From the sequence record NC_054913.1: DNA of 64,000 nucleotides; one strand, 5' to 3'. The DNA comes from Escherichia phage F2. Below, piece by piece: positions 1-11,581 of this stretch. A program made the position numbers and the translations under genes. The notes under the pieces are model-generated. The model did no database searches. It saw nothing but the letters and a program-made list of their open reading frames with translations, and was not told where the DNA came from. Numbering within the stretch: the stretch's first letter is position 1; each line of letters opens with the position of its first letter.

Positions 1-337
1 ATCATCTGCCGGTATTAATCTTAAAGATAAGAAAGGTCACCATGCGTATGGAATGTTCCAAAATTATCTACCAACAATGAGGGCAAGAATTAACCGGCTT
101 GGTTATAATATGTCTGATGCCCAAATTAAGAAAATGCTATCTAAGCGGTCTAATTCAGCCAGATGGGCTTATATCGAATTTTCTTATTGGTTAAATATAC
201 ATAACGGGGATATAAGAAAAGCTATATCCTCATATAATGCGGGATGGAAGACGAGTGCTGGAAGTAAATATGCTTCTGAAGTCCTAGAAAAGGCTAATTA
301 CCTTAAATCAAACAAACTACTGGAAATAAAAGAATGA
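1..337 (+). CDS. lytic transglycosylase-like protein, 5'-truncated at window edge
   Basis: Reading frame open from base 2; SLT-like motifs (AYGMFQ, SYNAG); track ORF 53..337 is its 3' part. Confidence 0.5.
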   Translation, partial: SSAGINLKDKKGHHAYGMFQNYLPTMRARINRLGYNMSDAQIKKMLSKRSNSARWAYIEFSYWLNIHNGDIRKAISSYNAGWKTSAGSKYASEVLEKANYLKSNKLLEIKE

Positions 338-681
338 CCAAAATGTTGGCTTTAATAGTTGGCTTGGTTTCATTTAACGCTCTTGCTAATACTACATATA
401 CTGATGTAACGGAGTATACAAACAGAACGGCATCTGATTATTGTGGTCAAAGTCAAGAGTGTAAAGTAGATTTTTCACAAAAATTGTTATATGCGTATAA
501 AGACGGAGAAAAAGATGGGGCGTCTAGTAGGTTCAAGGCGTCTACCTTAATTAAAAGATACTATAAAAAATGGCAAATATTAGAATGCTCGGTGGCGGAA
601 CCTAAAGATAAGGCAGCATGCAATTCTATGGTGGACCGTCTAGTTGACTCTTATACTAGAGGACTTGCAGCAAGTGATTAA
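334..681 (+). CDS. hypothetical secreted protein
   Basis: ATG overlapping upstream stop (ATGA); hydrophobic N-terminal signal-peptide-like segment MTKMLALIVGLVSFNALA. Confidence 0.55.
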   Translation: MTKMLALIVGLVSFNALANTTYTDVTEYTNRTASDYCGQSQECKVDFSQKLLYAYKDGEKDGASSRFKASTLIKRYYKKWQILECSVAEPKDKAACNSMVDRLVDSYTRGLAASD

Positions 682-1141
682 AAACTATATCAAGGGCGAT
701 ATTGTCGCCCTGTTTTCTAAAGGTAATAATATTGCTCATGGGTGTAATTGTTTTCATACAATGGGCGCTGGTGTGGCAGGACAATTAGCAAAGGCTTATC
801 CAAAAATTCTAGAAGCCGATAAACTTCAAACCGAATTCGGAGACGAGTCTAAACTCGGGACTTATTCGGTTTATGAAAAATATTTTAAGACCCATAAAGC
901 TTATTGCTTTAATCTTTATACGCAGTTTGAGCCGGGACCTAATTTTGAGTACTATGCTTTAATGAATTGTATAATAGAATTAAATGAATTCGGAAAGAAT
1001 AAGATAACAAAGCCTGTAATTTATATGCCAAGAATTGGTGCAGGTATCGGTGGTGGAAACTGGGATGTCATCGAAGAGATTTTAGATACGTATTCCACTA
1101 AACTAGAAATTGTGATTGTTGATTGGGAACCGTTATTATGA
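644..1141 (+). CDS. macro domain (ADP-ribose binding/processing) protein
   Basis: Motifs HGCNCFHTMGAGVAGQL and IGAGIGGG typical of macro domains; ORF begins at TTG 644, GTG 674 is an alternative start; no ATG in frame. Confidence 0.6.
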   Translation: MTLILEDLQQVIKNYIKGDIVALFSKGNNIAHGCNCFHTMGAGVAGQLAKAYPKILEADKLQTEFGDESKLGTYSVYEKYFKTHKAYCFNLYTQFEPGPNFEYYALMNCIIELNEFGKNKITKPVIYMPRIGAGIGGGNWDVIEEILDTYSTKLEIVIVDWEPLL

Positions 1142-1350
1142 ATATACATTATCCACATCCATATGACCCAAAGAATAAGGCAGTAATTATTCGTCAATGG
1201 GAACGCATTTGTCGTACCAAATGTCCAATTAATAGTCCACATGATGTAGATAAAGACTACATCGGAACATTCGTTGAATATACCTTTATTGATAAGAAAG
1301 GTCGTAAACAACATGTAGAAGAATATTGCTTAAAGGTGACATGGCTATGA
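1138..1350 (+). CDS. hypothetical protein
   Basis: ATG overlapping upstream stop; ORF track 1123..1350. Confidence 0.5.
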   Translation: MNIHYPHPYDPKNKAVIIRQWERICRTKCPINSPHDVDKDYIGTFVEYTFIDKKGRKQHVEEYCLKVTWL

Positions 1351-1553
1351 GTCAAACAAAAATTCTTACAGGTGCTAAATGCGAAAAATGCGAATGGCCT
1401 GTAGTTTTTGCTTTATGCAATGACGAAATGGCTTGTGATTTTGATTATTGGTGTTACTGTTCGAACAAAGGTTGTAGCAATCATAAAGGTGAAGGGTTTT
1501 ACTCAGGATTTTACCCTTACCCGGATTTCGTTAAAGAAGGTGAACCTAAATGA
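1341..1553 (+). CDS. hypothetical Cys-rich protein
   Basis: ORF track 1326..1553; first ATG at 1341; multiple Cys pairs (CEKCEW, CYCSNKGC). Confidence 0.5.
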   Translation: MAMSQTKILTGAKCEKCEWPVVFALCNDEMACDFDYWCYCSNKGCSNHKGEGFYSGFYPYPDFVKEGEPK

Positions 1554-1732
1554 AATTAACTAAAGAAGAGAAAGCTAAACTGTTCGAACTTATCCATGAC
1601 CTATTGGATGAGCAAGCAGCCACCAATGCGTACGATGAATATGCTCCTTTGACGGATGAAGAATATCAAACATTGTTGGAATCATTTGACAGGAAAGAAC
1701 AAGAACTCATTGACTACGTGAATTCACTATAA
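1550..1732 (+). CDS. hypothetical acidic protein
   Basis: ORF with ATG overlapping upstream stop. Confidence 0.5.
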   Translation: MKLTKEEKAKLFELIHDLLDEQAATNAYDEYAPLTDEEYQTLLESFDRKEQELIDYVNSL

Positions 1733-1741
1733 GGGACTCTT

Positions 1742-2323
1742 ATGGCTAGTTTAATTTTTACATATGCCGCTATGAACGCTGGTAAGTCTGCTTCATTACT
1801 TACTGCCGCACATAACTATAAAGAACGTGGCATGGGTGTATTAGTTCTTAAACCGGCTATTGATACTCGCGATTCAAAAGGTGAAATAGTCTCTCGTATT
1901 GGTATTCGTCAGGAAGCCAATATAATTACAAAAGACATGGATATCTTTGAATTCTATAAATGGGCTGCAGCACAAAAGGATATTCATTGTGTATTTGTTG
2001 ACGAAGCTCAGTTCTTAACTACTGAAAAGGTGTATCAACTTAGTCGTATTGTTGACGTATACAATGTGCCGGTAATGGCATATGGACTACGAACAGATTT
2101 TAAAGGTAATCTATTTGAAGGTTCTCAAGCATTAATGGCTATTGCCGATAAGCTTGTTGAACTTAAAGGTGTCTGTCATTGTGGTAAAAAGGCCACAATG
2201 GTAGCTAGAGTCACGGAAGACGGACTTCCAATTACAGATGGCAGTCAAATTGAAATTGGTGATACCGATAGATATGTGTCATTATGCCGGAAGCATTGGA
2301 ATGATTTGACAGGGTTGTTATAA
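1742..2323 (+). CDS. tk: thymidine kinase
   Basis: P-loop NAGKSASLL, C-terminal CxCG zinc motif, 193 aa; strong resemblance to T4 Tk. Confidence 0.95.
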   Translation: MASLIFTYAAMNAGKSASLLTAAHNYKERGMGVLVLKPAIDTRDSKGEIVSRIGIRQEANIITKDMDIFEFYKWAAAQKDIHCVFVDEAQFLTTEKVYQLSRIVDVYNVPVMAYGLRTDFKGNLFEGSQALMAIADKLVELKGVCHCGKKATMVARVTEDGLPITDGSQIEIGDTDRYVSLCRKHWNDLTGLL

Positions 2324-2350
2324 ATACTAATATCTAACCAAGAGGTATAT

Positions 2351-2563
2351 ATGCAGCAATTAAACGAAAGACAACTTCGTAATCTTACTGTAACCCAATT
2401 GGATGAAATCCGAAGAGAATTAGGACATTCTATTTCTCATTTAAACGAGGATATCCGTCAAACTGGTTCTAAAGCTGATTATACACGCAAGCGCAAGCTG
2501 GAAAAATACCTCACAGATGTTAAGGCCGTCCAAAGGCGAAAAATAAATACTGGCCAAAATTAA
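2351..2563 (+). CDS. hypothetical protein
   Basis: ORF with RBS (GAGG) upstream. Confidence 0.5.
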
Positions 2564-2575
2564 CAGGAGGCCTAT

Positions 2576-2878
2576 ATGGCCTTAAGAGCGATAGCTGTCA
2601 TGGCGATGCTGGGGTTTTTTGCAGCAACAACTCCTATCGTTGGTACTGCGTATACCGACCCATATTTTGATAACTTTATGGAATCAGGGATTAAAAACGT
2701 ATATACTTTGTTTGAAATTCAAAATGTCGAGAATTCTGAAAAATTCTATAAGTATATGGCAAAGCATTACAAAAATAGCCCCTGTGATGATGCATTTGAA
2801 TGTCATGAACAAGGCATAAAAACTGCCAGACAATTTGCCGAGTTCATGAAAATAAAATTAGAGCCTACATCTATCTAA
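2576..2878 (+). CDS. hypothetical secreted/membrane-anchored protein
   Basis: N-terminal hydrophobic segment; RBS AGGAGG upstream. Confidence 0.55.
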   Translation: MALRAIAVMAMLGFFAATTPIVGTAYTDPYFDNFMESGIKNVYTLFEIQNVENSEKFYKYMAKHYKNSPCDDAFECHEQGIKTARQFAEFMKIKLEPTSI

Positions 2879-2884
2879 TTTACT

Positions 2885-2913
2885 AGCCCCTTCCTTACGG
2901 TTGGGGCTTTTTG
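2885..2913 (+). terminator. rho-independent terminator hairpin
   Basis: agcccc...ggggct stem followed by T-run. Confidence 0.6.
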
Positions 2914-2923
2914 GCATCTATCA

Positions 2924-2952
2924 GTTTACTTCTCCTCAGGTTGTGTTATAGT
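2924..2952 (+). promoter_or_regulatory. T4-type early promoter (GTTTAC-N17-TATAGT)
   Basis: -35 gtttac 2924-2929, -10 tatagt 2947-2952. Confidence 0.55.
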
Positions 2953-2979
2953 AGTCCTTACTTACTAGAGGAGAACGTT

Positions 2980-3159
2980 ATGTCACGTAAAGAAAAAATT
3001 TCTAAGTTAATGTTTTTGATTGAAGAGTACGCTAATGCGGTATCTGATTGGGAAAATGCTCATGGTTGCGAAGATGGAGACATCGACATTAACAGAGCTA
3101 TGAAAAAGATGGCTGATACGCACACCGAATTGCAAATGTACGTTAACGAGATTATGTGA
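2980..3159 (+). CDS. hypothetical protein
   Basis: ATG preceded by GAGGAG RBS; ORF track 2911..3159. Confidence 0.5.
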   Translation: MSRKEKISKLMFLIEEYANAVSDWENAHGCEDGDIDINRAMKKMADTHTELQMYVNEIM

Positions 3160-3166
3160 GGACATT

Positions 3167-3373
3167 ATGCTTTACGATTATACTGGAAAATCTGAAGACG
3201 GTGTACTTGAACTTTTACCTGAAAGCGCTGAAGATGATGATATGGTGATGATGTTTTGTAAAAATGGTCCTGGGGATAAGGGATGGATTTATCTTCGCCA
3301 AGAAAATGACTTAATTGTTTTAGACCCTAAACAAGTTGAAGAACTTTATCAACATTTAAAACACAATCGGTAG
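3167..3373 (+). CDS. hypothetical protein
   Basis: ORF, RBS GAGGA upstream. Confidence 0.5.
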   Translation: MLYDYTGKSEDGVLELLPESAEDDDMVMMFCKNGPGDKGWIYLRQENDLIVLDPKQVEELYQHLKHNR

Positions 3374-3402
3374 TTTACGTCTTGGTAGGACTATGTTATA
3401 GT
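3373..3402 (+). promoter_or_regulatory. T4-type early promoter
   Basis: gtttac 3373-3378, tatagt 3397-3402; embedded in perfect 12-bp inverted repeat 3382-3413. Confidence 0.55.
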
Positions 3403-3430
3403 AGTCCTACCAAAACAAATGGAGAACAAA

Positions 3431-3541
3431 ATGAAACTTTTGCTTATCGCTTATGTTGTAGTACAATACAATTATCCGATGTTTACTTATAACATGGTAA
3501 ACGGCATAGTGAATCTTATTGAAACGAGTATGGTAAAATGA
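3431..3541 (+). CDS. small hypothetical protein (36 aa)
   Basis: ATG with GGAGAA RBS; below ORF-track size cutoff. Confidence 0.3.
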   Translation: MKLLLIAYVVVQYNYPMFTYNMVNGIVNLIETSMVK

Positions 3542-3717
3542 CCCGTGAACAAGCTAATAAATTGATGGACCTTATCCGTGACTTACGTGAAGCCGATTCA
3601 GATTTGAATGATGTAGCTTATCATGCTGTAAATGATAACGGAGACTTTTATGAAAATCAGGTTGATGCTTGCCAGAATGCTTTGGTGAATTTTGTCGAAA
3701 CTTTAATTGGTGAATAA
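3538..3717 (+). CDS. small hypothetical protein (59 aa)
   Basis: ATG overlapping upstream stop (ATGA); tightly packed between neighbours. Confidence 0.4.
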   Translation: MTREQANKLMDLIRDLREADSDLNDVAYHAVNDNGDFYENQVDACQNALVNFVETLIGE

Positions 3718-3718
3718 T

Positions 3719-4249
3719 ATGAAAACTGTAATTGAAACAACCGAGTTGTTTGGTGATTTATGTATCGAAAAACGTGGTTATGTGTATGTTCTGACACAAG
3801 AAGATGATGCTGCTACTATTCTTCCTATGGAACTAGACAAGATTTTGAAACTCAATCCACCAGGTCATGCATCTGTAATTAACATTAACGAAGACCTTCA
3901 AGTTCGTTTTTATCATGGACTTTATAGTGGGGTTAATATCGAAACCGAAGACGAATGTTTTTCTATTAATAATTGGAAAACATTCGTCACTAAGGTGAAA
4001 GAATTAATGGAATCTGAAACAGCCAAAAAGGCCAAACTTCAATGGGCTAAATGCCGTAATGCTTTTATTACAAATCAGGACCGCCCTGACTATACAACAG
4101 TCCTAGGCGTTAATCCTTCTTATGAAGATGGTGATGTCGTAGTTATTCGTCAAATTGATGACCTTCGTCAACATATCATTACATTGGACAAAGATGAAGC
4201 AGTTGCTCTTAAAGCTTATCTTGATTCTATTATCCCGACTTTGAAATAA
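3719..4249 (+). CDS. hypothetical protein
   Basis: ORF track 3707..4249; ATG at 3719. Confidence 0.55.
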   Translation: MKTVIETTELFGDLCIEKRGYVYVLTQEDDAATILPMELDKILKLNPPGHASVININEDLQVRFYHGLYSGVNIETEDECFSINNWKTFVTKVKELMESETAKKAKLQWAKCRNAFITNQDRPDYTTVLGVNPSYEDGDVVVIRQIDDLRQHIITLDKDEAVALKAYLDSIIPTLK

Positions 4250-4258
4250 GGAATTATT

Positions 4259-4732
4259 ATGATTATCAATGAAAACTCTTGGCACTTTAAAATTTATGCC
4301 GCGTTCAATAATACATGGAATCGCCCTAAAACGTTGTGTGCTTATTTTTGGAAAACGTTAATCCCGGTATTATCTGTTTCAATTATTGGATTTGCGATTT
4401 TAGCAGCAGTAACAATCATTGGCCAGGAAATTTTAACTAGATTCTTTGTTTTTAGCAGTCTATGGACATTAGTTCCAGCCTCAATTGGCGTAGGCATTTT
4501 AATGGTATCAGTCATGGCTTTTATTTCTGCCGGGTTGATAATTGGTCCGTCTTGGTTGTTAGACAAATATAACGACAGAAAATATTATAAAGAAATTGAG
4601 CTCATTGCGCAAAACCAAGAACGAATTAAAAATGGACTTGAACCTATTGAACGTAAGAAATCATTAATAGGTGAATACCTTAAAGCTCGTAAAGAAAAAA
4701 TCTGTCCTACTCTTGAATATAAGGCTAAATGA
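4259..4732 (+). CDS. hypothetical membrane protein
   Basis: Two long hydrophobic segments. Confidence 0.55.
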   Translation: MIINENSWHFKIYAAFNNTWNRPKTLCAYFWKTLIPVLSVSIIGFAILAAVTIIGQEILTRFFVFSSLWTLVPASIGVGILMVSVMAFISAGLIIGPSWLLDKYNDRKYYKEIELIAQNQERIKNGLEPIERKKSLIGEYLKARKEKICPTLEYKAK

Positions 4733-5742
4733 TGAAAACAATTATGAAAGGCTACTTTGGTAGCCACCTTTATGGAACTTCTACTCCAGAATCTGATGTA
4801 GATTTTAAAGAAATCTTTGTTCCTCCTGCTCGCGATATTCTTATCGGAAATGTTAAAGAGCATATGAGTAAAAACACTAACAACACATCATCTAAAAACA
4901 CCAAAGATGATATTGACCATGAACTGTACAGTCTTAAGTATTTCTTTAAATTAGCAGCAGATGGTGAAACTGTAGCATTGGATATGCTTCACACTCCGCC
5001 TGAACTAGTGGTTAAATCTGATTTGCCTGATGTATGGAAATTTATCCAAGACAATCGTTCACGGTTTTATACAACTAACATGAAATCCTATTTAGGATAT
5101 GTCCGCAAGCAAGCTTCTAAATACGGTGTCAAGGGTTCTCGTTTGGCCGCATTACGTGATGTATTGAAAGTAGTTAATCAAATCCCTGACCAGTGGGTCG
5201 ACTATCAAGAAGGAATCCCTGATAGACTTCGTCGTACTAAGGTAGAAGATATCAAACACAGACTCCCTGAAAACGAGTTCTGTGAATGGGTATTCCATAA
5301 CCATGAGAAAACAGGCCCGCAAACGTTCTATACCGTGTTGGGTCGTAAATATCAGACAACACTTTCTCTTATTGAGCTTAAGCAGTCTTTGAATAAACTT
5401 GATGCTGAATATGGCGAACGTGCTCGTAAGGCTGAAGCGAATGAGGGCATTGACTGGAAAGCTCTAAGTCATGCTTGTCGTGGTGGACTCCAACTATTGG
5501 AAATTTACAAAACTGGTGACTTGGTTTATCCACTTCAAGACGCTCCATTTATTCTCGACGTGAAGCTGGGTAAACACCCATTTAAAACTGTTCAAGAGTT
5601 TTTGGAAGGTGTGGTCGATCAAGTAGAAGCAGCATCCATTGAAGCTTCTAAGAACGGTATGCAGCAAAAAGTAGACATGGGTTTTTGGGATGACTTCCTT
5701 GAACAAGTCTATCTCGAAAATCATAATTCTTACTATAAATAA
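4729..5742 (+). CDS. nucleotidyltransferase (Pol-beta superfamily fold)
   Basis: GS-x9-DVDF motif (GSHLYGTSTPESDVDF) at N-terminus; 337 aa. Confidence 0.65.
   Translation: MMKTIMKGYFGSHLYGTSTPESDVDFKEIFVPPARDILIGNVKEHMSKNTNNTSSKNTKDDIDHELYSLKYFFKLAADGETVALDMLHTPPELVVKSDLPDVWKFIQDNRSRFYTTNMKSYLGYVRKQASKYGVKGSRLAALRDVLKVVNQIPDQWVDYQEGIPDRLRRTKVEDIKHRLPENEFCEWVFHNHEKTGPQTFYTVLGRKYQTTLSLIELKQSLNKLDAEYGERARKAEANEGIDWKALSHACRGGLQLLEIYKTGDLVYPLQDAPFILDVKLGKHPFKTVQEFLEGVVDQVEAASIEASKNGMQQKVDMGFWDDFLEQVYLENHNSYYK
5734..5741 (+). promoter_or_regulatory. T4-type late promoter TATAAATA
   Basis: Exact TATAAATA upstream of 5774 ORF. Confidence 0.4.
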
Positions 5743-5773
5743 GTAGATAAATAACCATTAACTTGAGGTAAAT

Positions 5774-6055
5774 ATGAAAAAATTAGTAATTGGTTTATTC
5801 ACAGTAATGATGGCATTCTCTGTTGGTGCTACCACGGGTGCTGCTGGCGGTAGTGCAGGAGCTGGTGGTAACCAGTCTTCTGGGCCTTCTAATGGTTCGG
5901 TAAATGCATCACATTCTCAGGGTATTGAGAACATTAAATCAAGCTATATTAATAGCACGGCCGGACAAGCAACTGAAGCATGGTCAAAGGGACGAGTAGT
6001 TACTCGCTCCGTATTCTGTGATATGCCTAATTATGTTGCTAAGTGCGATAAGTAA
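5774..6055 (+). CDS. hypothetical secreted Gly/Ser-rich protein
   Basis: Signal peptide MKKLVIGLFTVMMAFSVGA followed by Gly-rich low-complexity region. Confidence 0.55.
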   Translation: MKKLVIGLFTVMMAFSVGATTGAAGGSAGAGGNQSSGPSNGSVNASHSQGIENIKSSYINSTAGQATEAWSKGRVVTRSVFCDMPNYVAKCDK

Positions 6056-6058
6056 ATG

Positions 6059-6080
6059 TGGGGACCTTCGGGTCCCTTTA
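6059..6080 (+). terminator. terminator hairpin (UUCG tetraloop)
   Basis: gggaccttcgggtccc followed by T-rich tract. Confidence 0.5.
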
Positions 6081-6107
6081 GGGGGTTAAAATATTTTTAA
6101 AAAAGTA

Positions 6108-6136
6108 GTGTACATGCTTTTAGGATATGTTATTAT
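6108..6136 (+). promoter_or_regulatory. T4-type early promoter
   Basis: gtgtac 6108-6113, tattat 6131-6136. Confidence 0.5.
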
Positions 6137-6174
6137 AGACCTATCGAAACGAAATGAGTAAATTGGAGAATAAA

Positions 6175-7155
6175 ATGTTCAACGTTCAAATCAAAAAAGG
6201 TATCTATCGTAATAACGAAATCTCTGGTTCTTATGTTGCCACAAAGACCTGGTTCCCGGCAAAGCTTAATCCTGAATGTTCCCACTTAGGTGATGGTAAA
6301 ATCTTCGTTATGATTGACGGTTCTGAACGTGGAGTATGGGTCTTCAAATCAGACATCGTAATGGAAGGAGTTGAGACATCACCAGTTGCAGTCGTTGAAA
6401 GCACTGAAGATATGAAAACTCGTATCAACAAACGCTTTAAAGTAATGAACATGATGACGAATGGCATTATCGATGGTAAAATTCGTTCACTCATTATTTC
6501 AGGTGCAGCTGGTATTGGTAAGACGTATTCTCTGGATAAAGCACTTAATAACGCTAATGATAATGGTTTCATCAAATACAAAAGCATTAATGGTAAAATC
6601 TCTGGTATCGGCCTTTACGAACAACTTTGGCTCAACCGTGATGCAGACAGCGTTCTCTTAATCGACGACGTTGACGTATTCTCAGATATGGACATCTTGA
6701 ACCTTCTTAAAGCAGCATTAGATACTGGAGATAAACGCAAAGTTTGTTGGAGCACTGCGTCATCTTATCTCGATGATAAGGGTATTGATAAAGAATTTGA
6801 GTTTGAAGGTACTATCGTTTTCATTACAAACGTTGATATCGATAAAGAGTTAGAACGCGGTTCGAAACTTGCCCCACACCTTCAAGCTTTAGTATCTCGT
6901 TCAGTGTATCTCGACCTTGGAGTACACTCTAATGAAGAGATTATGGTTCGAGTTGAAGATGTAATATTATCTACTGACATGATGCAGAAACGTGGTCTGA
7001 CGGATGCAGAAACGTATAAAGCATTGTCCTGGATGAAGGCTAACGTATCTCGTCTTCGCAATGTATCATTACGTACGGCTCTTTACGTAGCAGATTTTAT
7101 TTCAACTGATAAAGATGGTTGGGAAGAAATCTCGGAAGTTACTTTATTGAAATAA
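6175..7155 (+). CDS. P-loop NTPase (AAA-like ATPase)
   Basis: Walker A GAAGIGKT, Walker B LLIDDVD; ORF track 6154..7155, ATG 6175 has GGAG RBS. Confidence 0.65.
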   Translation: MFNVQIKKGIYRNNEISGSYVATKTWFPAKLNPECSHLGDGKIFVMIDGSERGVWVFKSDIVMEGVETSPVAVVESTEDMKTRINKRFKVMNMMTNGIIDGKIRSLIISGAAGIGKTYSLDKALNNANDNGFIKYKSINGKISGIGLYEQLWLNRDADSVLLIDDVDVFSDMDILNLLKAALDTGDKRKVCWSTASSYLDDKGIDKEFEFEGTIVFITNVDIDKELERGSKLAPHLQALVSRSVYLDLGVHSNEEIMVRVEDVILSTDMMQKRGLTDAETYKALSWMKANVSRLRNVSLRTALYVADFISTDKDGWEEISEVTLLK

Positions 7156-7293
7156 GCTTATAGGAAGTTCTGAGGTAACAAAAGCCATAAAGATGAATAA
7201 TCATATGGCTTACCTCAAAGAAGGACACCAGGAACCTACTGAGGGCATAGAAATATTTAAAAATAATGATGTACAAATCAAAGAGGATATGTT

Positions 7294-7581
7294 ATGGATT
7301 TTATGCAAAAAATTAAAGCCGCAGTAGAACTCTATGCTCATCGTATGGTTAGTTCTACAATGCAATATAGCGAGGAGGTTCGCCAGGACTCTTCCTTGAA
7401 AGGAAAAACTAAAGCCTTAATTACCTTAGATCGTTTGCAAAAGAATGCCATAGAGATGCTCCAGTACGACAAGGCTGTATATAAGAAAGAACAGGAAGAG
7501 AAACTTAAATCTGAAAAATTACAGAAAGTCCCGAAGTCTGTTTGGTTCAGTGGAAAAAATACCGAAAAAAGTTTCTTTTAG
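7294..7581 (+). CDS. hypothetical protein
   Basis: ORF with AGAGGA RBS. Confidence 0.5.
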   Translation: MDFMQKIKAAVELYAHRMVSSTMQYSEEVRQDSSLKGKTKALITLDRLQKNAIEMLQYDKAVYKKEQEEKLKSEKLQKVPKSVWFSGKNTEKSFF

Positions 7582-7583
7582 TT

Positions 7584-7612
7584 GTTTACAAGGTCTATGG
7601 TTATGTTATTAT
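7584..7612 (+). promoter_or_regulatory. T4-type early promoter
   Basis: gtttac 7584-7589, tattat 7607-7612. Confidence 0.6.
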
Positions 7613-7639
7613 AGACCTATCAACTACTGGAGGTAAAAC

Positions 7640-8188
7640 ATGAACGCTAAAGATATTTTCAACCTGGTAAATTATAACGACGGTAAATTTAAATCTGAAG
7701 CACAAAGCAAGTTCTTTAATGACATTGCTTATGGTAACGAGATTACCGTGGACGGAGGTCAGATTTTCAAATCTCGCTGGAATTGGATTGCTATCATCGA
7801 TTCAGTTGGAATTGTGGAAGTCTACAAAAACACTAACAAAAAACGTACATTATTCTGGTCTCGTGAAACTAACGAGCAGTACAAAAAGGATAAAGCATCT
7901 CGTTTATCCAAAGTAACCCAGGAAGATATCGAGTTTATCAAGAAAGATATCGAGTTTATCAAGAAAGATATCGAGATGTACGAAAATTTAATCGCTGAAG
8001 ACCAGGCAGTACTCGATAAGTTTGATGAAATTAAAGCTTCTCGTGAAATCCCTGACTTCATGAAAGAAACAGTAAACGAACGATACGCTCTCACTTCAGA
8101 ACGTATTGCAAACTATACAAAACAGAAAGCAGAACGTATTAGTACTCTTCGGAAATTTGAAGAACGTTTAAAGACGGTTCACGCATAA
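7640..8188 (+). CDS. hypothetical protein with internal tandem repeat
   Basis: ORF with GGAGG RBS; contains in-frame 21-bp tandem repeat. Confidence 0.55.
   Translation: MNAKDIFNLVNYNDGKFKSEAQSKFFNDIAYGNEITVDGGQIFKSRWNWIAIIDSVGIVEVYKNTNKKRTLFWSRETNEQYKKDKASRLSKVTQEDIEFIKKDIEFIKKDIEMYENLIAEDQAVLDKFDEIKASREIPDFMKETVNERYALTSERIANYTKQKAERISTLRKFEERLKTVHA
7925..7975 (+). repeat. 21-bp direct tandem repeat (about 2.4 copies) inside CDS
   Basis: gatatcgagtttatcaagaaa repeated, encoding DIEFIKK. Confidence 0.9.
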
Positions 8189-8190
8189 AC

Positions 8191-8215
8191 GCTTTACCCA
8201 AGGACGGGTTATAAT
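8191..8215 (+). promoter_or_regulatory. T4-type middle promoter (MotA box + -10)
   Basis: cGCTTTA 12-13 bp upstream of TATAAT 8210-8215. Confidence 0.45.
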
Positions 8216-8250
8216 GGTTTTGAGTTCCAATTCAATCTGAGGAAATAGTT

Positions 8251-9246
8251 ATGAGCATTACATCTGATGCGGTAAAACATGAAATTAACGGTTTATGTGC
8301 TTCACAGATTAAAGTGTGGTTTAAAGACCATAATGATCGCAGAGCACTTAATTATGAGCAAATTGCTATCCAAGTTCATCAATTACTGACTAGTAAATTT
8401 GATTTTCATATGCCGTCTGAAATCTATACTAACCTACCACGAGCGCTTATTAAAGCGTGTAAAGGTTACGGAAAATCAATGGCCGATGGAATCTTCAGCG
8501 CGCTGAATAAACTTAACGTTCTGTCGATGATTAACTCTAACAACATCCTGCGTAATCTAGGACGTACTGATTTGTTCGGCCGTGAACAGTGTAAAATGCC
8601 TTTGAAATGGATTGTTGCTCATCTTAACGAGAATCAAACACGTTTTATGGCCGTATCAGCACGCTTACAAATGGGCCTAGATCGTCAGATGAACTTTAAA
8701 ACTCATCCACGTTATTCAGGTTCAACAGACTTTTATAAATGTGAGCTTCAAAAGGTCGCAGGTAAAACTGTCTTAGTAGTTCGTGTAACGTTTGAAGGAC
8801 GACGTCAAGGATATTTTGACGTAATCGGCTCTGGACTTAAACATTGTGGATTTATCGACGAAGTTGATATCAAGCGAGACAGCATTGGATACCGTATTGG
8901 ATATGTTTGTACTCTTAAAGAAGAGATTTCAGGACCAGCACCAGGACTAAAAGACGTTAGATATAAAGACGAGCTCGTTGAAGAAATAAAAGAAGTTGAA
9001 TATGATATCAACCAAGAAGATGCTCTTAAAGACCTTATTGATGAACTAAACCAAGACGTTATTCCAGTTCAGAAATTTGAATCAAAACATGCTGAGCAAA
9101 TCAAATACTTTGAAGCTTTGATTAACGAACTTAATGTAACTATTCAACAGACTGACGATGAAATCTCACGATTAGCAGGCTTAAACGGTAAAAATAAAAC
9201 AGAACGAGCTAATCTTATTCAGGTAGTAAAACTTCTTAAGGAATGA
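8251..9246 (+). CDS. hypothetical protein with C-terminal coiled coil
   Basis: 331-aa ORF, GAGGAA RBS. Confidence 0.55.
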   Translation: MSITSDAVKHEINGLCASQIKVWFKDHNDRRALNYEQIAIQVHQLLTSKFDFHMPSEIYTNLPRALIKACKGYGKSMADGIFSALNKLNVLSMINSNNILRNLGRTDLFGREQCKMPLKWIVAHLNENQTRFMAVSARLQMGLDRQMNFKTHPRYSGSTDFYKCELQKVAGKTVLVVRVTFEGRRQGYFDVIGSGLKHCGFIDEVDIKRDSIGYRIGYVCTLKEEISGPAPGLKDVRYKDELVEEIKEVEYDINQEDALKDLIDELNQDVIPVQKFESKHAEQIKYFEALINELNVTIQQTDDEISRLAGLNGKNKTERANLIQVVKLLKE

Positions 9247-9275
9247 TGTACAACCAAGGATGGTTGGAGTATAAT
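9247..9275 (+). promoter_or_regulatory. T4-type early promoter (repeated cassette)
   Basis: -35-like atgtac, TATAAT 9270-9275; near-identical copy at 53471-53512. Confidence 0.5.
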
Positions 9276-9303
9276 CTTTCTATCTTAACGAGAGGAAAAT
9301 ATT

Positions 9304-10254
9304 ATGACACGTTCACATTATGTTGATTATTTTGCAGGTCTTATCGCTAACGTTCATGCCCAACGTGCTTCTGGTTCATTAGGATTTGATGTTCCACACC
9401 GAGTTGTAGTAAGTGGTATTCTTCGCGATTTTGGTACATACACAGGCCAAGAAAATCATATCTGTAAAGATACTCAGAATGCGTATTCTCATTCATTAGG
9501 GACACTGCTTCAATGGTTCAAACGTTCTCGTTTATTATCTTCTACTGTAGCTCGCGATAACATTAAAAACTTTATGAAGCCGAGCTTTATTAAATCTGTG
9601 ACATCTAAAACTGATTTAGTTGAATTTACTATTATTAACGATGTTAAAAAGACTCATTTGGCTGATTGGTTATCTACCATTCCTGAAACTAAATTTGCTG
9701 ATAAATTTGCTTGTGAATTCAATAACCAAGTGAATATGCTTTTTAAACATTCTCGTAAATTATTCACGGGCGGTGACGCCCGTACAAATAAAGTTCATGT
9801 TAAAGATTGGGTTACTGCAGTATTCAAACCAACTGGTAATGGTAACGCATCATTATCAATTGATATCCAGGTTCCTTATTACTACTCACGTAATCTCGGT
9901 ACCATGAAAGCCGAAGAAATTAAGAAGCACAATAAAACCGTTCGTTCGCTGTCTTATAAACTTCGTATGATGTTACAGACTATGGATGTTGTTGAAATGT
10001 TCAGCGAAACCGAAGATAATGGTTCAATGTTATACAGTTCTCGCATTCAAATTAAGTTGAAGAACCCTAACGAGTATAAGCCTAAGCCTATTAAAGAGCC
10101 TAAAGCAGAAAAAGTTGATAACTTAAGAGAAGAACGCGAATATCTCAAATCTCGTCTGAAAGAAGTCGAAGCCCAGATTGCAGAACAAACTAAATCGTTA
10201 AAAGCTCTGAATGCGAAAGCGGATGGTTTACGAAATGCCATTGAGGTGTTATAA
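9304..10254 (+). CDS. hypothetical protein with C-terminal coiled coil
   Basis: 316-aa ORF, GAGAGGA RBS. Confidence 0.55.
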   Translation: MTRSHYVDYFAGLIANVHAQRASGSLGFDVPHRVVVSGILRDFGTYTGQENHICKDTQNAYSHSLGTLLQWFKRSRLLSSTVARDNIKNFMKPSFIKSVTSKTDLVEFTIINDVKKTHLADWLSTIPETKFADKFACEFNNQVNMLFKHSRKLFTGGDARTNKVHVKDWVTAVFKPTGNGNASLSIDIQVPYYYSRNLGTMKAEEIKKHNKTVRSLSYKLRMMLQTMDVVEMFSETEDNGSMLYSSRIQIKLKNPNEYKPKPIKEPKAEKVDNLREEREYLKSRLKEVEAQIAEQTKSLKALNAKADGLRNAIEVL

Positions 10255-10559
10255 TGAAACTACGTCTTTTAGAGGATATTGATATGAGCACTAATCATGG
10301 CTTGGTTAAGTTTATTGACGATAGTTCAAAGATTGAATTTGTTCAGCGAGATAAAATCCACGGTGAAGAAGAGTTCGTTCCTCCGGCATGGAACGAAATA
10401 ATGAAAATGGTTGAACGACGTGAAAATGCTGCCAAATCGGCAGCAAAACATCCATGCCCGGAATGTGGAACTATCCAAGTCCAACTGGTTAACTGGACCA
10501 GTGATAACTTGAAATTGAAATGCCGTAAATGCTTCCACAAATTTGAGAGAACATTATAA
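10254..10559 (+). CDS. hypothetical zinc-ribbon protein
   Basis: CPECG...CRKC motif pair. Confidence 0.5.
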   Translation: MKLRLLEDIDMSTNHGLVKFIDDSSKIEFVQRDKIHGEEEFVPPAWNEIMKMVERRENAAKSAAKHPCPECGTIQVQLVNWTSDNLKLKCRKCFHKFERTL

Positions 10560-10972
10560 TGAGATATAGCCTTCGTTGTTTTATCGCAGCTTTAGTTTTT
10601 GCTATTATTCCATTCATTTGGAACAGCCAGAATACTTACATGGAAACTAAAGTAATTCCTGTGGAGGTAGTGGAATTAATCTCAGGCCAATCTACAGGAA
10701 AATATTCTAATTTAGAATTTATTGCAGTTTATAAAGATGAACAAGGCCGTGTTTTTGACAGGCATGTATCACCGTCGTTTTATACGCTTCTGAATAAAGG
10801 TGATACGATAGCTATAGAAATTCGTGAGATGGATATCAAACAAACTACTAAAGATAACTTGATTTGGTTCTTTGGTACAGTGTTGTTGGTTTCTATCTGT
10901 ATCACAGGTTTTATTACATGTATTGTATTTGGCGTTGCATATTTAATCGATGAAAGGAAAAATAATGTTTAA
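10559..10972 (+). CDS. hypothetical membrane protein
   Basis: N- and C-terminal hydrophobic segments. Confidence 0.5.
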   Translation: MRYSLRCFIAALVFAIIPFIWNSQNTYMETKVIPVEVVELISGQSTGKYSNLEFIAVYKDEQGRVFDRHVSPSFYTLLNKGDTIAIEIREMDIKQTTKDNLIWFFGTVLLVSICITGFITCIVFGVAYLIDERKNNV

Positions 10973-11228
10973 AGTGTACGGGTATGACTCTACTATTCAT
11001 AAATGCATTTATTGTGATAATGCGAAACGATTGCTGACTGTTAAGAAACAGCCATTCGAATTCATTAATGTTATGCCAGAAAAAGGTGTGTTCGATGATG
11101 AGAAAATTGCTGAGCTTCTGGTTAAGCTTGGACGTGAATCACAAGTCGGATTGACTATGCCTCAAGTGTTTGCTCCTGATGGAACTTCGATCGGTGGCTT
11201 TGACCAACTACGAGAATATTTTAAATGA
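10965..11228 (+). CDS. nrdC: thioredoxin/glutaredoxin NrdC
   Basis: MFKVYGYDSTIHKCIYCDNAK closely matches T4 NrdC; CxxC active site. Confidence 0.9.
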   Translation: MFKVYGYDSTIHKCIYCDNAKRLLTVKKQPFEFINVMPEKGVFDDEKIAELLVKLGRESQVGLTMPQVFAPDGTSIGGFDQLREYFK

Positions 11229-11581
11229 CATATTCATTAAATCTTAAAGATTTCCAAGATGTATACGAAGTTTGTGCCAATGAACTTGGTCCTGATGCTC
11301 CAACTATTATTGAAGTTTTAAATGTGCTCCCTTCATCATTAACTTACGAAGCCAAATCATGGGGTTGGAACGACACTGTCGTTCGTGATGACCTTTACGT
11401 CCTGATGAATGACATGATGATTAAAAAGGCAGAACCGGTTGCACCAATGGTTACCATTACCGTTGAAGAATATAATCGCCTGCAAGCCATTGAAGAGCTT
11501 CTGTGGAACATTGAATGTGACCTGCCGTCAGGGCTAGAATCCTGGATTGATTATGAAGAGCTCAATAAACTCCGGGGTTAA
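11225..11581 (+). CDS. hypothetical protein
   Basis: ORF overlapping nrdC stop. Confidence 0.5.
   Translation: MTYSLNLKDFQDVYEVCANELGPDAPTIIEVLNVLPSSLTYEAKSWGWNDTVVRDDLYVLMNDMMIKKAEPVAPMVTITVEEYNRLQAIEELLWNIECDLPSGLESWIDYEELNKLRG

What the first reader, a model, noticed from the sequence alone, without database searches (positions are those of the whole stretch)
4729..5742. Pol-beta-type nucleotidyltransferase of unknown substrate
An N-terminal GS-x9-DxD nucleotidyltransferase motif is followed by a roughly 250-aa helical region. The gene lies in the accessory block between tk and nrdC, where anti-defence or nucleotide-signalling functions commonly sit.
Basis: inference. Interest (0 to 1): 0.5.

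Follow-up and report, generated by a model that had tools for sequence, protein, structure and literature searches.

The report
T4 nrdC.11 RlaP-type RNA nucleotidyltransferase

Summary
The ORF at 4729-5742 (+) is real. It encodes a protein 95% identical to phage T4 NrdC.11, which RefSeq calls "nucleotidyltransferase".

- **Family:** it passes the Pfam gathering score for RlaP (PF10127, RNA-ligase-associated Pol-beta). A December 2025 preprint names T4 NrdC.11 as an RlaP member of unknown function. It shows that two Pseudomonas RlaPs add 1-2 NMPs to RNA 3'-OH ends.
- **Active site:** G11-S12, D23, D25 and D63 are invariant across 68 diverse relatives. dN/dS against T4 is 0.066.
- **Structure:** a confident AlphaFold model shows an NTase core and a helical domain.
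- **Fold searches:** kanamycin-NTase-like and HalB-like NTases come up. No cGAS/CD-NTase or CCA-adding enzyme appears in the listed hits.
- **Context:** full-length bacterial relatives lie next to Hen1-Pnkp, RtcB or a polynucleotide kinase in 7 of 50 loci and on two plasmids. They are often in tandem with a canonical RlaP.

**Most likely function (inferred):** restoring nucleotides lost from cleaved tRNA before ligation by T4 Pnkp and Rnl.

**Caveats:** the T4 subfamily aligns significantly with canonical RlaP only in the NTase core, no ligase is adjacent in the phage neighbourhoods examined, and no experiment exists.

**Verdict:** already known, modest interest.

The parts
4729..5742 (+). nrdC.11 ortholog: RlaP-family (PF10127) Pol-beta nucleotidyltransferase. 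337 aa from the first ATG, probably 336 aa from the ATG at 4732.
   Evidence: ORF list. 95% identity to T4 NrdC.11 over 336 aa. Pfam RlaP 43.3 bits against cutoff 23. PHROG 388 "nucleotidyltransferase" E = 3e-136, full length. dN/dS 0.066 against T4.
4721..4724 (+). Shine-Dalgarno-like AAGG. The upstream ORF's stop codon (TGA, 4730-4732) overlaps both candidate start codons, which suggests translational coupling.
   Evidence: Read directly from the sequence. The upstream ORF 4259..4732 is.
4729..5181 (+). N-terminal NTase core plus the first helices (residues 1-151): strands 3-10, 24-31, 45-49 and 62-68; helices 69-150.
   Evidence: AlphaFold model, pLDDT 94. Pfam RlaP match covers residues 7-136. 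hhalign to canonical RlaP covers the core (query-profile columns 7-95): 81 aligned columns, E = 1.4e-4.
4759..4764 (+). G11-S12 of the Pol-beta hG[GS] motif.
   Evidence: Invariant in 68 relatives.
4795..4803 (+). D23-V24-D25, the metal-binding DxD.
   Evidence: D23 and D25 are invariant in 68 relatives and align with the canonical RlaP "DYDVR".
4909..4917 (+). D61-I62-D63. D63 is the probable third catalytic carboxylate.
   Evidence: D63 is invariant and D61 99% conserved. D63 lies on strand 62-68 and aligns with the invariant Asp of canonical "LDxNGWD".
5182..5364 (+). Beta-rich insert (residues ~152-212: five strands and one short helix). It is specific to the NrdC.11 subfamily and absent from the canonical RlaP model. 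Its function is unknown.
   Evidence: Secondary structure of the model compared with the canonical RlaP model. Residues 156-169 are gapped in 34-94% of relatives, while residues 170-212 are present in most (gap fraction 0.35 or less). Deleting the insert extends the Pfam RlaP match.
5365..5739 (+). C-terminal helical domain (residues 213-337), a HEPN-like or kanamycin-NTase-like bundle whose last helix carries the FWDDF motif.
5458..5481 (+). K244-x3-H248-x2-R251, an invariant basic motif of the helical domain and a probable NTP- or RNA-binding site.
   Evidence: Invariant in 68 relatives and in relatives embedded in RNA-repair operons. Same spacing as canonical RlaP K149-x3-Y153-x2-R156.

Best explanation
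The gene encodes the T4 NrdC.11 ortholog, an active template-independent nucleotidyltransferase of the RlaP family.

**Proposed mechanism**
- D23, D25 and D63 hold two divalent metal ions. By analogy with the Pseudomonas enzymes these are probably Mn2+.
- The enzyme transfers one or two NMPs from NTPs to the 3'-OH of a broken RNA.
- The most likely substrate is the 5' half of a tRNA that a host anticodon nuclease has both cut and trimmed, as RloC does when it excises the wobble nucleotide.
- Phage Pnkp (PseT) first removes the 2',3'-cyclic phosphate. The NTase then refills the gap. Rnl1 or Rnl2 seals the nick.
- The result would extend T4's classical tRNA-repair counter-defence to nucleases that remove nucleotides.

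**Shown here:** a real, conserved gene under purifying selection; an intact Pol-beta catalytic signature; the fold; Pfam membership; and RNA-repair neighbours for full-length bacterial relatives.

**Inferred:** the RNA substrate, the order of steps, and the biological target.
For: - **Family membership.** Pfam RlaP is above the gathering score, and 67 of 68 diverse relatives also hit it. The preprint places T4 NrdC.11 in RlaP sequence-network cluster 5.
- **Active site.** The catalytic residues are invariant. dN/dS is 0.066.
- **Biochemistry of the family.** Pseudomonas RlaPs add 1-2 NMP to RNA 3'-OH, prefer the 5' half of a cleaved tRNA mimic, do not use DNA or protein, and partly rescue aminoacylation of a tRNA missing one nucleotide.
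- **Genomic context of full-length NrdC.11-type relatives.**
  - An Asticcacaulis plasmid carries Hen1 - Pnkp - NrdC.11-type (35.6% identity, 97% coverage) - canonical RlaP on one strand.
  - On a Deferribacter plasmid RtcB lies about 2.6 kb upstream.
  - Among 50 bacterial and archaeal loci, 7 have RtcB, Hen1+Pnkp, a PseT-like kinase or an RnlA-like ligase within 8 kb. Two of them have the kinase immediately upstream.
  - RlaP, RtcB and Hen1_L are among the recurring Pfam families in co-directional neighbours.
  - These relatives keep D25, D63, K244, H248 and R251.
- **Partners in the phage.** T4 encodes the needed enzymes elsewhere in its genome: rnlA, rnlB and pseT.
- **Phage distribution.** NrdC.11 and RnlA have almost identical counts across T4-like phage groups: Escherichia 639/637, Klebsiella 295/287, Shigella 83/83, Acinetobacter 69/69.
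- **Published view.** In jumbo phages, RlaP distribution mirrors that of RNA ligases (PMC7824862).
Against: - The T4 subfamily is distant from the characterised enzymes. Profile-profile alignment is significant only over the 81-column NTase core (E = 1.4e-4, probability 52%).
- The C-terminal half aligns only weakly, and only after the insert is removed (E = 9.5e-4, probability 22%). On its own it is not significant.
- The protein carries a ~60-aa beta-rich insert that the canonical RlaP model lacks. This insert could change specificity.
- The PfRlaP crystal structure is not in the PDB copy, so no direct structural comparison was possible.
- None of the seven phage neighbourhoods examined has an adjacent ligase or Pnkp. 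The 64-kb window holds none either.
- 43 of 50 bacterial loci show no RNA-repair neighbour at BLAST sensitivity.
- The co-distribution with RnlA is not diagnostic, because both are near-core genes of T4-like phages.
- T4 tolerates deletion of nrdC.11-mobD.3 in the laboratory (PMC9825161).
- No experiment exists on any NrdC.11-type protein.
Confidence: 0.55

Rival explanations
1. tRNA 3'-end (CCA) repair or maturation. The enzyme would top up damaged or incomplete 3' termini of phage or host tRNAs rather than refill anticodon-loop gaps.
For: - Pseudomonas RlaPs label full-length tRNA-sized species in total E. coli RNA and add only 1-2 nucleotides.
- T4-like phages encode their own tRNAs (established knowledge).
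- The chemistry is the same as in the best explanation, so the sequence alone cannot separate the two readings.
Against: - Aeromonas phage AS-sw carries a separately annotated tRNA nucleotidyltransferase about 4 kb from its NrdC.11 homolog, so the two are not redundant there.
- Bacterial relatives sit next to Pnkp/Hen1 and RtcB, which heal internal breaks.
- In the annealed cleaved-tRNA mimic, RlaP preferred the break-site 3' end (Asp-34) over the 3' end of the other half (Asp-42).
Confidence: 0.15
2. Nucleotidylylation of a protein or a small molecule, in the manner of the MNT antitoxin or kanamycin nucleotidyltransferase. For example, it might AMPylate a host toxin or defence protein.
Against: - All matches are weak (TM about 0.3 or less; no Foldseek hit below E = 1e-3) and reflect the shared NTase-plus-bundle architecture.
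- NCBIfam MntA scores 12.9 bits against a cutoff of 60.
- There is no Rx4-6H motif. No neighbouring window ORF scanned against Pfam matched a HEPN family.
- Characterised RlaPs did not label E. coli proteins.
Confidence: 0.08
3. Synthesis of a nucleotide or oligonucleotide signal or decoy, in the manner of CD-NTases or Hailong HalB, to trigger or silence a host immune pathway.
For: - The gene lies in a variable accessory region.
Against: - The resemblance covers only about 145-155 residues (NTase core plus adjacent helices) at 13-16% identity.
- No cGAS, DncV or OAS-type structure is among the listed hits.
- PADLOC finds nothing.
- The family's neighbours are RNA-repair genes, not effectors or receptors.
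Confidence: 0.05

Closest known systems
Phage T4 NrdC.11 (NP_049709; RefSeq product "nucleotidyltransferase")
   Same: Ortholog: 95% identity over 336 aa with no gaps. It has the same position between mobD.1 and nrdC.10 in the tk-nrdC block.
   Different: In this phage the adjacent mobD homing endonuclease is absent. A 157-aa membrane-protein ORF precedes the gene, and a 93-aa ORF with a signal-peptide-like N-terminus follows it. Amino-acid differences cluster in the insert loop at residues 162-167.
Pseudomonas fluorescens / P. aeruginosa RlaP (PF10127; preprint 10.64898/2025.12.29.696909)
   Same: - Same Pfam family.
- Same GS / DxD / third-Asp signature.
- The same order of elements as described for PfRlaP: N-terminal NTase, then a helical domain, then a terminal helix. 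This was compared using an AlphaFold model of a canonical RlaP.
- Shared K-x3-[HY]-x2-R spacing.
- Association with RNA-repair genes in bacteria.
   Different: - About 80 aa longer than the ~254-aa canonical RlaPs compared here, which were taken from bacterial MAGs. The Pseudomonas sequences themselves were not available.
- It has a beta-rich insert (residues ~152-212) and lacks the N-terminal helix of the canonical model.
- Only the NTase core aligns significantly.
- It lies in a separate cluster (5, against 1a) of the authors' sequence network.
- It is not in an RtcB operon in phages.
- Its activity has not been tested.
Kanamycin nucleotidyltransferase ANT(4') and the uncharacterised NTase 3c18
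   Different: 8-12% identity and TM about 0.3. These enzymes have small-molecule substrates and no RlaP Pfam membership.
Hailong HalB
   Different: 15% identity, a different C-terminal organisation, and membership of a host defence pair with HalA. There is no evidence of such a partner here.

Membership tests
RlaP (Pfam PF10127, RNA-ligase-associated Pol-beta NTase) | Sequence matches the family HMM above the curated gathering score. | tested here: met
   43.3 bits against cutoff 23, E = 4.6e-11, residues 7-136. 67 of 68 diverse relatives also match. With the insert deleted, the match extends to original residue ~270.
RlaP (Pfam PF10127, RNA-ligase-associated Pol-beta NTase) | Pol-beta catalytic signature: hG[GS], DxD and a third carboxylate. 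| tested here: met
   G11, S12, D23, D25 and D63 are invariant in 68 relatives. They align with the canonical RlaP GS / DYD / LDxNGWD.
RlaP (Pfam PF10127, RNA-ligase-associated Pol-beta NTase) | Architecture of the PfRlaP crystal structure: N-terminal NTase, C-terminal helical domain, and a last helix packing back on the NTase. | tested here: inconclusive
   Secondary-structure order is collinear between the NrdC.11 model and a canonical RlaP model, and motif spacing is shared. However, NrdC.11 has an extra beta-rich insert. The C-terminal profile alignment is not significant on its own. The PfRlaP coordinates are not in the PDB copy, AFDB50 was unavailable, and the BFVD hits could not be identified as NrdC.11-type.
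RlaP (Pfam PF10127, RNA-ligase-associated Pol-beta NTase) | Gene neighbourhood with RNA ligase or end-healing genes (RtcB, Pnkp/Hen1, Rnl). | tested here: inconclusive
   Met for bacterial full-length relatives: Hen1-Pnkp-NTase on the Asticcacaulis plasmid, RtcB nearby in Deferribacter, and 7 of 50 genome loci. Not met in this window or in the seven phage neighbourhoods examined. In T4 the ligases and Pnkp are encoded elsewhere in the genome.
RlaP (Pfam PF10127, RNA-ligase-associated Pol-beta NTase) | Adds 1-2 NMP to RNA 3'-OH and prefers Mn2+. | not testable with these tools
   Shown only for PfRlaP and PaRlaP. It needs biochemistry on NrdC.11.
cGAS / CD-NTase signalling enzymes | cGAS/DncV-type fold and family-profile matches. 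| tested here: not met
MNT antitoxin (type VII toxin-antitoxin, MntA) | A minimal NTase matching the MntA model, paired with a HEPN toxin carrying Rx4-6H. | tested here: not met
   NCBIfam MntA scores 12.9 bits against a cutoff of 60. There is no Rx4-6H motif in the protein. No neighbouring window ORF scanned against Pfam matched a HEPN family.
Class I/II CCA-adding tRNA nucleotidyltransferases | PolyA_pol-type head domain with neck and body domains. | tested here: not met
   No such Pfam match. None among the listed structural hits. Phage AS-sw encodes a separately annotated tRNA nucleotidyltransferase alongside its NrdC.11 homolog.
Hailong HalB | Close structural and sequence similarity to HalB, with a HalA partner. 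| tested here: inconclusive

The most novel reading that the evidence does not exclude
NrdC.11 may not be an RNA-repair enzyme. Its closest solved fold is Hailong HalB, which makes oligodeoxyadenylate. The phage enzyme could therefore synthesise a nucleotide or oligonucleotide decoy that keeps a host immune effector switched off. That would be a new anti-defence principle.

A milder and more probable novel reading (about 0.3) is that the beta-rich insert gives NrdC.11-type enzymes a specificity distinct from the canonical RlaPs they pair with in bacteria. On this reading the T4 enzyme is the missing third component of the Pnkp-Rnl1 pathway and defeats nucleotide-excising anticodon nucleases such as RloC.
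Probability: 0.04. Interest if true: 0.8.

Novelty: already known. Interest (0 to 1): 0.3.

Why it matters
T4's Pnkp-Rnl1 tRNA repair is the textbook case of a phage undoing host RNA damage. Nucleases such as RloC, which also excise a nucleotide, are thought to defeat simple religation. If NrdC.11 refills that gap, then many T4-like phages (the gene is in 1,572 phage records) carry a three-enzyme repair pathway, and a long-unassigned T4 gene gains a role.

The hypothesis can be tested directly with T4 genetics and simple RNA-extension assays.

The finding itself adds no new family. The gene, its family and the proposed role are already in the literature, and RefSeq already labels it a nucleotidyltransferase.

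Tried and rejected
- **Sequence search of the PDB.** Neither the single sequence nor a 68-sequence profile gave a meaningful hit. The PfRlaP crystal structure is evidently not in the copy.
- **AFDB50 fold search.** The library was not installed.
- **Structure prediction of canonical RlaP from locus translations.** It worked after a protein search made the sequences admissible.
- **BFVD search with the canonical RlaP model.** It was meant to give a TM-score against NrdC.11-type phage proteins. It returned 318-344-aa viral NTases at TMq 0.56-0.69, but they could not be identified, so the test is inconclusive.
- **Genome-contig scan with the 68-sequence alignment.** It failed because no stretch was conserved enough. 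A 10-sequence alignment worked.
- **NrdC.10 as a functional partner.** The adjacent P-loop ATPase is conserved next to nrdC.11 in T4, a Mosigvirus and an Acinetobacter phage. It is absent from the KVP40, KPN8 and Atu_ph07 loci, is not annotated in the AS-sw or phiKp_8 neighbourhoods, and is absent from all 50 bacterial loci. I rejected it as an obligate partner.
- **Promoter and terminator scan.** The number of sites was no greater than in shuffled sequence, so it was uninformative.
- **Burroughs & Aravind 2016, the paper that defined RlaP.** It is not held in the library and is cited only through PMC7824862, PMC6514570 and the preprint.
- **HEPN RNase reading of the C-terminal bundle.** Rejected, because there is no Rx4-6H motif.
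Full report
**1. What is there**

A second in-frame ATG at 4732 is the start annotated in T4. It lies 7 nt after an AAGG at 4721-4724, against 4 nt for the first ATG. The stop codon of the upstream ORF (TGA, 4730-4732) overlaps both candidate starts. The product is therefore probably 336 aa and translationally coupled to the upstream gene.

The window comes from a T4-like phage. A 3.2-kb segment around the gene matches 793 phage records, and the best matches are Escherichia and Shigella T4-like phages. Gene order follows T4: vs, tk.4, tk.3, tk.2, tk, rI.1, rI, mobD.1, nrdC.11, nrdC.10, and so on to nrdC. The protein is 95% identical to T4 NrdC.11 over 336 residues with no gaps. RefSeq already names that protein "nucleotidyltransferase".

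**2. Checking the observation**

- *Motif.* It reads G11-S12-x10-D23-V24-D25.
- *Conservation.* A search of 1.84 billion cluster representatives found 3,375 relatives at E ≤ 1e-3 and 809 at E ≤ 1e-30. The listed best hits are mostly full length. In an alignment of 68 of them (34-55% identity to the query), G11, S12, G16, S22, D23, D25, N57, D63, Y132, K244, H248, R251 and P268 are invariant. D61, D85, D242, W243, R110, K135, R138, R231 and K279 are at least 90% conserved.
- *Selection.* dN/dS against the T4 gene is 0.066, with dS = 0.53. The high protein identity therefore reflects purifying selection rather than recent transfer.
- *Structure.* The AlphaFold model is confident (pLDDT 94, pTM 0.83). 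It shows the NTase strands (3-10, 24-31, 45-49, 62-68), helices 69-150, a beta-rich insert of five strands and a short helix at ~152-212, and helices 214-336. The "roughly 250-aa helical region" is thus interrupted by a beta module.

**3. Family**

Pfam assigns the protein to RlaP (PF10127, "RNA repair pathway DNA polymerase beta family") at 43.3 bits against a gathering score of 23. The match covers only residues 7-136. PHROG 388 "nucleotidyltransferase" matches at full length (E = 3e-136). NCBIfam and PADLOC give nothing meaningful.

RlaP was defined by Burroughs and Aravind (2016). Later papers cite it as predicting that these enzymes restore nucleotides lost from cleaved RNA ends before ligation, for example after RloC removes the wobble base (PMC7824862, PMC6514570).

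A December 2025 preprint (10.64898/2025.12.29.696909) reports the following for two Pseudomonas RlaPs:
- They add one or two NMPs, or dNMPs, to RNA 3'-OH ends.
- They prefer Mn2+.
- They do not act on DNA or protein.
- They prefer the 5' half of a cleaved-tRNA mimic.
- They partly rescue aminoacylation of a tRNA lacking one nucleotide.

The crystal structure has an N-terminal NTase, a C-terminal helical domain and a last helix packing back on the NTase. The authors place "T4NrdC.11" in a separate cluster of their sequence network and call its function unknown.

**4. How good is the transfer of function?**

I obtained canonical RlaPs (about 254 aa; Pfam E down to 2.3e-81) as tandem neighbours of NrdC.11-type genes in bacteria.

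- Profile-profile comparison of the two subfamilies is significant only across the NTase core: 81 columns, E = 1.4e-4, probability 52%. It aligns GS, DxD and D63 with the invariant Asp of "LDxNGWD".
- Removing the insert lets the Pfam match run on to original residue ~270.
- It also gives a full-length but weak profile alignment (215 columns, E = 9.5e-4, probability 22%). That alignment pairs K244-x3-H248-x2-R251 with canonical K149-x3-Y153-x2-R156, and the terminal FWD.F helix with FD.VF. The C-terminal half alone is not significant.
- A model of a canonical RlaP (pLDDT 89) is collinear in secondary structure with the NrdC.11 model. It lacks the insert and has an extra N-terminal helix.
- A direct superposition was not possible. 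PfRlaP is not in the PDB copy, AFDB50 was unavailable, and the BFVD hits of 318-344 aa at TMq 0.56-0.69 could not be identified.

My conclusion is that membership of PF10127 is met and the catalytic core is shared. A shared overall architecture is likely but not demonstrated. The subfamily also has its own extra module.

**5. Fold comparisons against the rival ideas**

- *Foldseek against the PDB* gives nothing below E = 1e-3. The best hits are 3c18, kanamycin nucleotidyltransferase and Hailong HalB, at TM about 0.3.
- No cGAS/CD-NTase, OAS or CCA-adding enzyme is among the listed hits.
- The protein has no Rx4-6H HEPN motif.
- The MntA model scores 12.9 bits against a cutoff of 60.

**6. Genomic context**

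*In phages.* The gene is in 1,572 of 50,697 records. These span many T4-like (Straboviridae) genera and some jumbo phages. None of the seven neighbourhoods I examined has an adjacent ligase or Pnkp: Mosigvirus 348Ecol098PP, KVP40, Atu_ph07, KPN8, Acinetobacter DLP3, Aeromonas AS-sw and Klebsiella phiKp_8. The 64-kb window holds none either. T4 encodes rnlA, rnlB and pseT elsewhere in its genome. Record counts per host group are almost the same for NrdC.11 and RnlA. That agrees with co-occurrence but is not diagnostic, because both genes are near-core in this lineage.

*In bacteria.* The picture is more telling.
- The closest plasmid homolog (Asticcacaulis; 35.6% identity over 97% of the query) follows Hen1 and Pnkp directly. 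A canonical RlaP follows it.
- A Deferribacter megaplasmid has RtcB about 2.6 kb upstream on the same strand.
- Among 50 genomic loci with full-length relatives, 7 have RtcB, Hen1+Pnkp, a PseT-like kinase or an RnlA-like ligase within 8 kb. In two of these the kinase is immediately upstream. Nine loci have a canonical RlaP immediately downstream.
- An unbiased Pfam scan of 129 co-directional neighbours ranks RlaP first. RtcB and Hen1_L are among the few families that recur, and the rest are heterogeneous.
- By my own rough estimate (an inference, not a computed control), RtcB within 16 kb of a random gene should occur well under 1% of the time. Five of 50 would therefore be a large enrichment.
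- The operon-embedded relatives keep D25, D63, K244, H248, R251 and the middle insert region.

**7. Most likely mechanism**

[quoted passage not shown] The most plausible substrate is a tRNA 5' half that a host anticodon nuclease has trimmed. The enzyme would act after Pnkp has healed the end and before Rnl1 or Rnl2 seals it.

My rough estimates:
- Active NTase: about 0.9.
- RlaP family member: about 0.85.
- RNA 3'-end substrate: about 0.6-0.7, counting the CCA-end variant.
- The specific anticodon-gap-filling counter-defence role: about 0.55, of which part is shared with the 3'-end repair variant.

Points against, in brief: the distance from the characterised enzymes, the extra insert, no ligase adjacency in phages, most bacterial loci lacking repair neighbours, dispensability in the laboratory (PMC9825161), and no experiment on this subfamily.

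**8. Rivals**

- *CCA-end repair.* The chemistry is the same but the end is different. It is weakened by AS-sw encoding a separate tRNA nucleotidyltransferase and by the Pnkp, Hen1 and RtcB neighbours.
- *Protein or small-molecule nucleotidylylation.* It rests on fold resemblance only. Characterised RlaPs do not label proteins.

**9. Novelty and verdict**

The gene, its family assignment and the proposed role are already in databases and in the literature. This copy is 95% identical to T4's. My rating is "already known".

- The NrdC.11 subfamily carries a beta-rich insert.
- It is linked to canonical RlaP significantly only through the NTase core.
- It recurs in tandem with canonical RlaP.
- It sits in Hen1-Pnkp, RtcB and kinase operons in bacteria.

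Interest is 0.3. The hypothesis is specific and easy to test in T4, but the expected answer would not surprise a specialist.

Noticed in passing
window 4729-5742, and relatives in public records: Many GenBank and UniRef records label NrdC.11 homologs "thioredoxin", and one labels it "putative HNH homing endonuclease". This is probably name propagation from the neighbouring genes nrdC and mobD. The protein has no thioredoxin fold.
   Followed up: partly
L008 7001-8790; L015, L017, L023, L024, L031, L035, L037, L056 (immediately downstream of the match): In 9 of 50 bacterial loci and on the Asticcacaulis plasmid, an NrdC.11-type NTase is followed directly by a canonical ~254-aa RlaP (Pfam E down to 2.3e-81). 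This recurrent tandem pair of RlaP paralogs suggests a division of labour between the two. I did not find it described in the papers I could read.
   Followed up: partly
window 1-11300: nrdC.11 is 95% identical to T4 at the protein level, while its neighbours are far more diverged: tk 82%, nrdC.10 77.5%, rI 52%, mobD.1 46%, nrdC.9 35%, nrdC.6 29%. tk.3 is 100% identical. Close DNA relatives of the window (Mosigvirus-type records) carry a different 328-329-aa allele at about 80% identity. Together this points to a mosaic or unusually constrained locus.
   Followed up: partly
window 4259-4732 (+): T4 has the mobD HNH homing endonuclease upstream of nrdC.11. This phage instead has a 157-aa ORF with hydrophobic stretches (annotated "membrane protein" in related records) and no Pfam match. 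Its stop codon overlaps the nrdC.11 start.
   Followed up: no
window 5774-6055 (+): A 93-aa Gly/Ser-rich ORF with a signal-peptide-like N-terminus lies between nrdC.11 and nrdC.10. It has a weak YbgS-like Pfam hit (E = 6.5e-4, below the cutoff). T4 has only a 114-nt gap there. A terminator-like hairpin follows at 6071-6087.
   Followed up: no
window 5182-5364 (residues ~152-212 of the protein): A beta-rich insert of unknown function sits inside the helical domain. A T4-group-specific extra hairpin (residues 156-169) is gapped in 34-94% of relatives. Most differences from T4 NrdC.11 fall in this loop. No fold search of the isolated module was possible.
   Followed up: partly
window 6154-7155 (+): The NrdC.10 ortholog is a P-loop ATPase with AAA_22 and AAA_16 Pfam hits below their cutoffs. 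It stays next to nrdC.11 in T4, a Mosigvirus and an Acinetobacter phage. It is absent near the homolog in KVP40, KPN8 and Atu_ph07, is not annotated near it in AS-sw or phiKp_8, and is absent from all 50 bacterial loci.
   Followed up: partly
window 644-1141 (+): The Tk.4 ortholog is a Macro-domain protein (Pfam Macro E = 3.4e-6). The jumbo-phage review links Macro domains to processing of ADP-ribose phosphate by-products of RNA repair. No link to nrdC.11 was tested.
   Followed up: no
L065 1-863 (Aeromonas phage AS-sw): This phage encodes a separately annotated tRNA nucleotidyltransferase about 4 kb upstream of its NrdC.11 homolog, and a metal-dependent phosphohydrolase nearby.
   Followed up: no
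BFVD hits of the canonical RlaP model: The canonical RlaP fold also matches baculovirus HE65 proteins and 515-596-aa giant-virus proteins (Terrestrivirus, Yasminevirus). This suggests RlaP-like domains fused to other modules in eukaryotic viruses.
   Followed up: no
L003 4316-4732 (KVP40.0151): In KVP40 a small ORF annotated by a match to PF00406 (adenylate-kinase-type P-loop kinase) lies two genes upstream of the NrdC.11 homolog. It could be a nucleotide or polynucleotide kinase. This was not examined.
   Followed up: no
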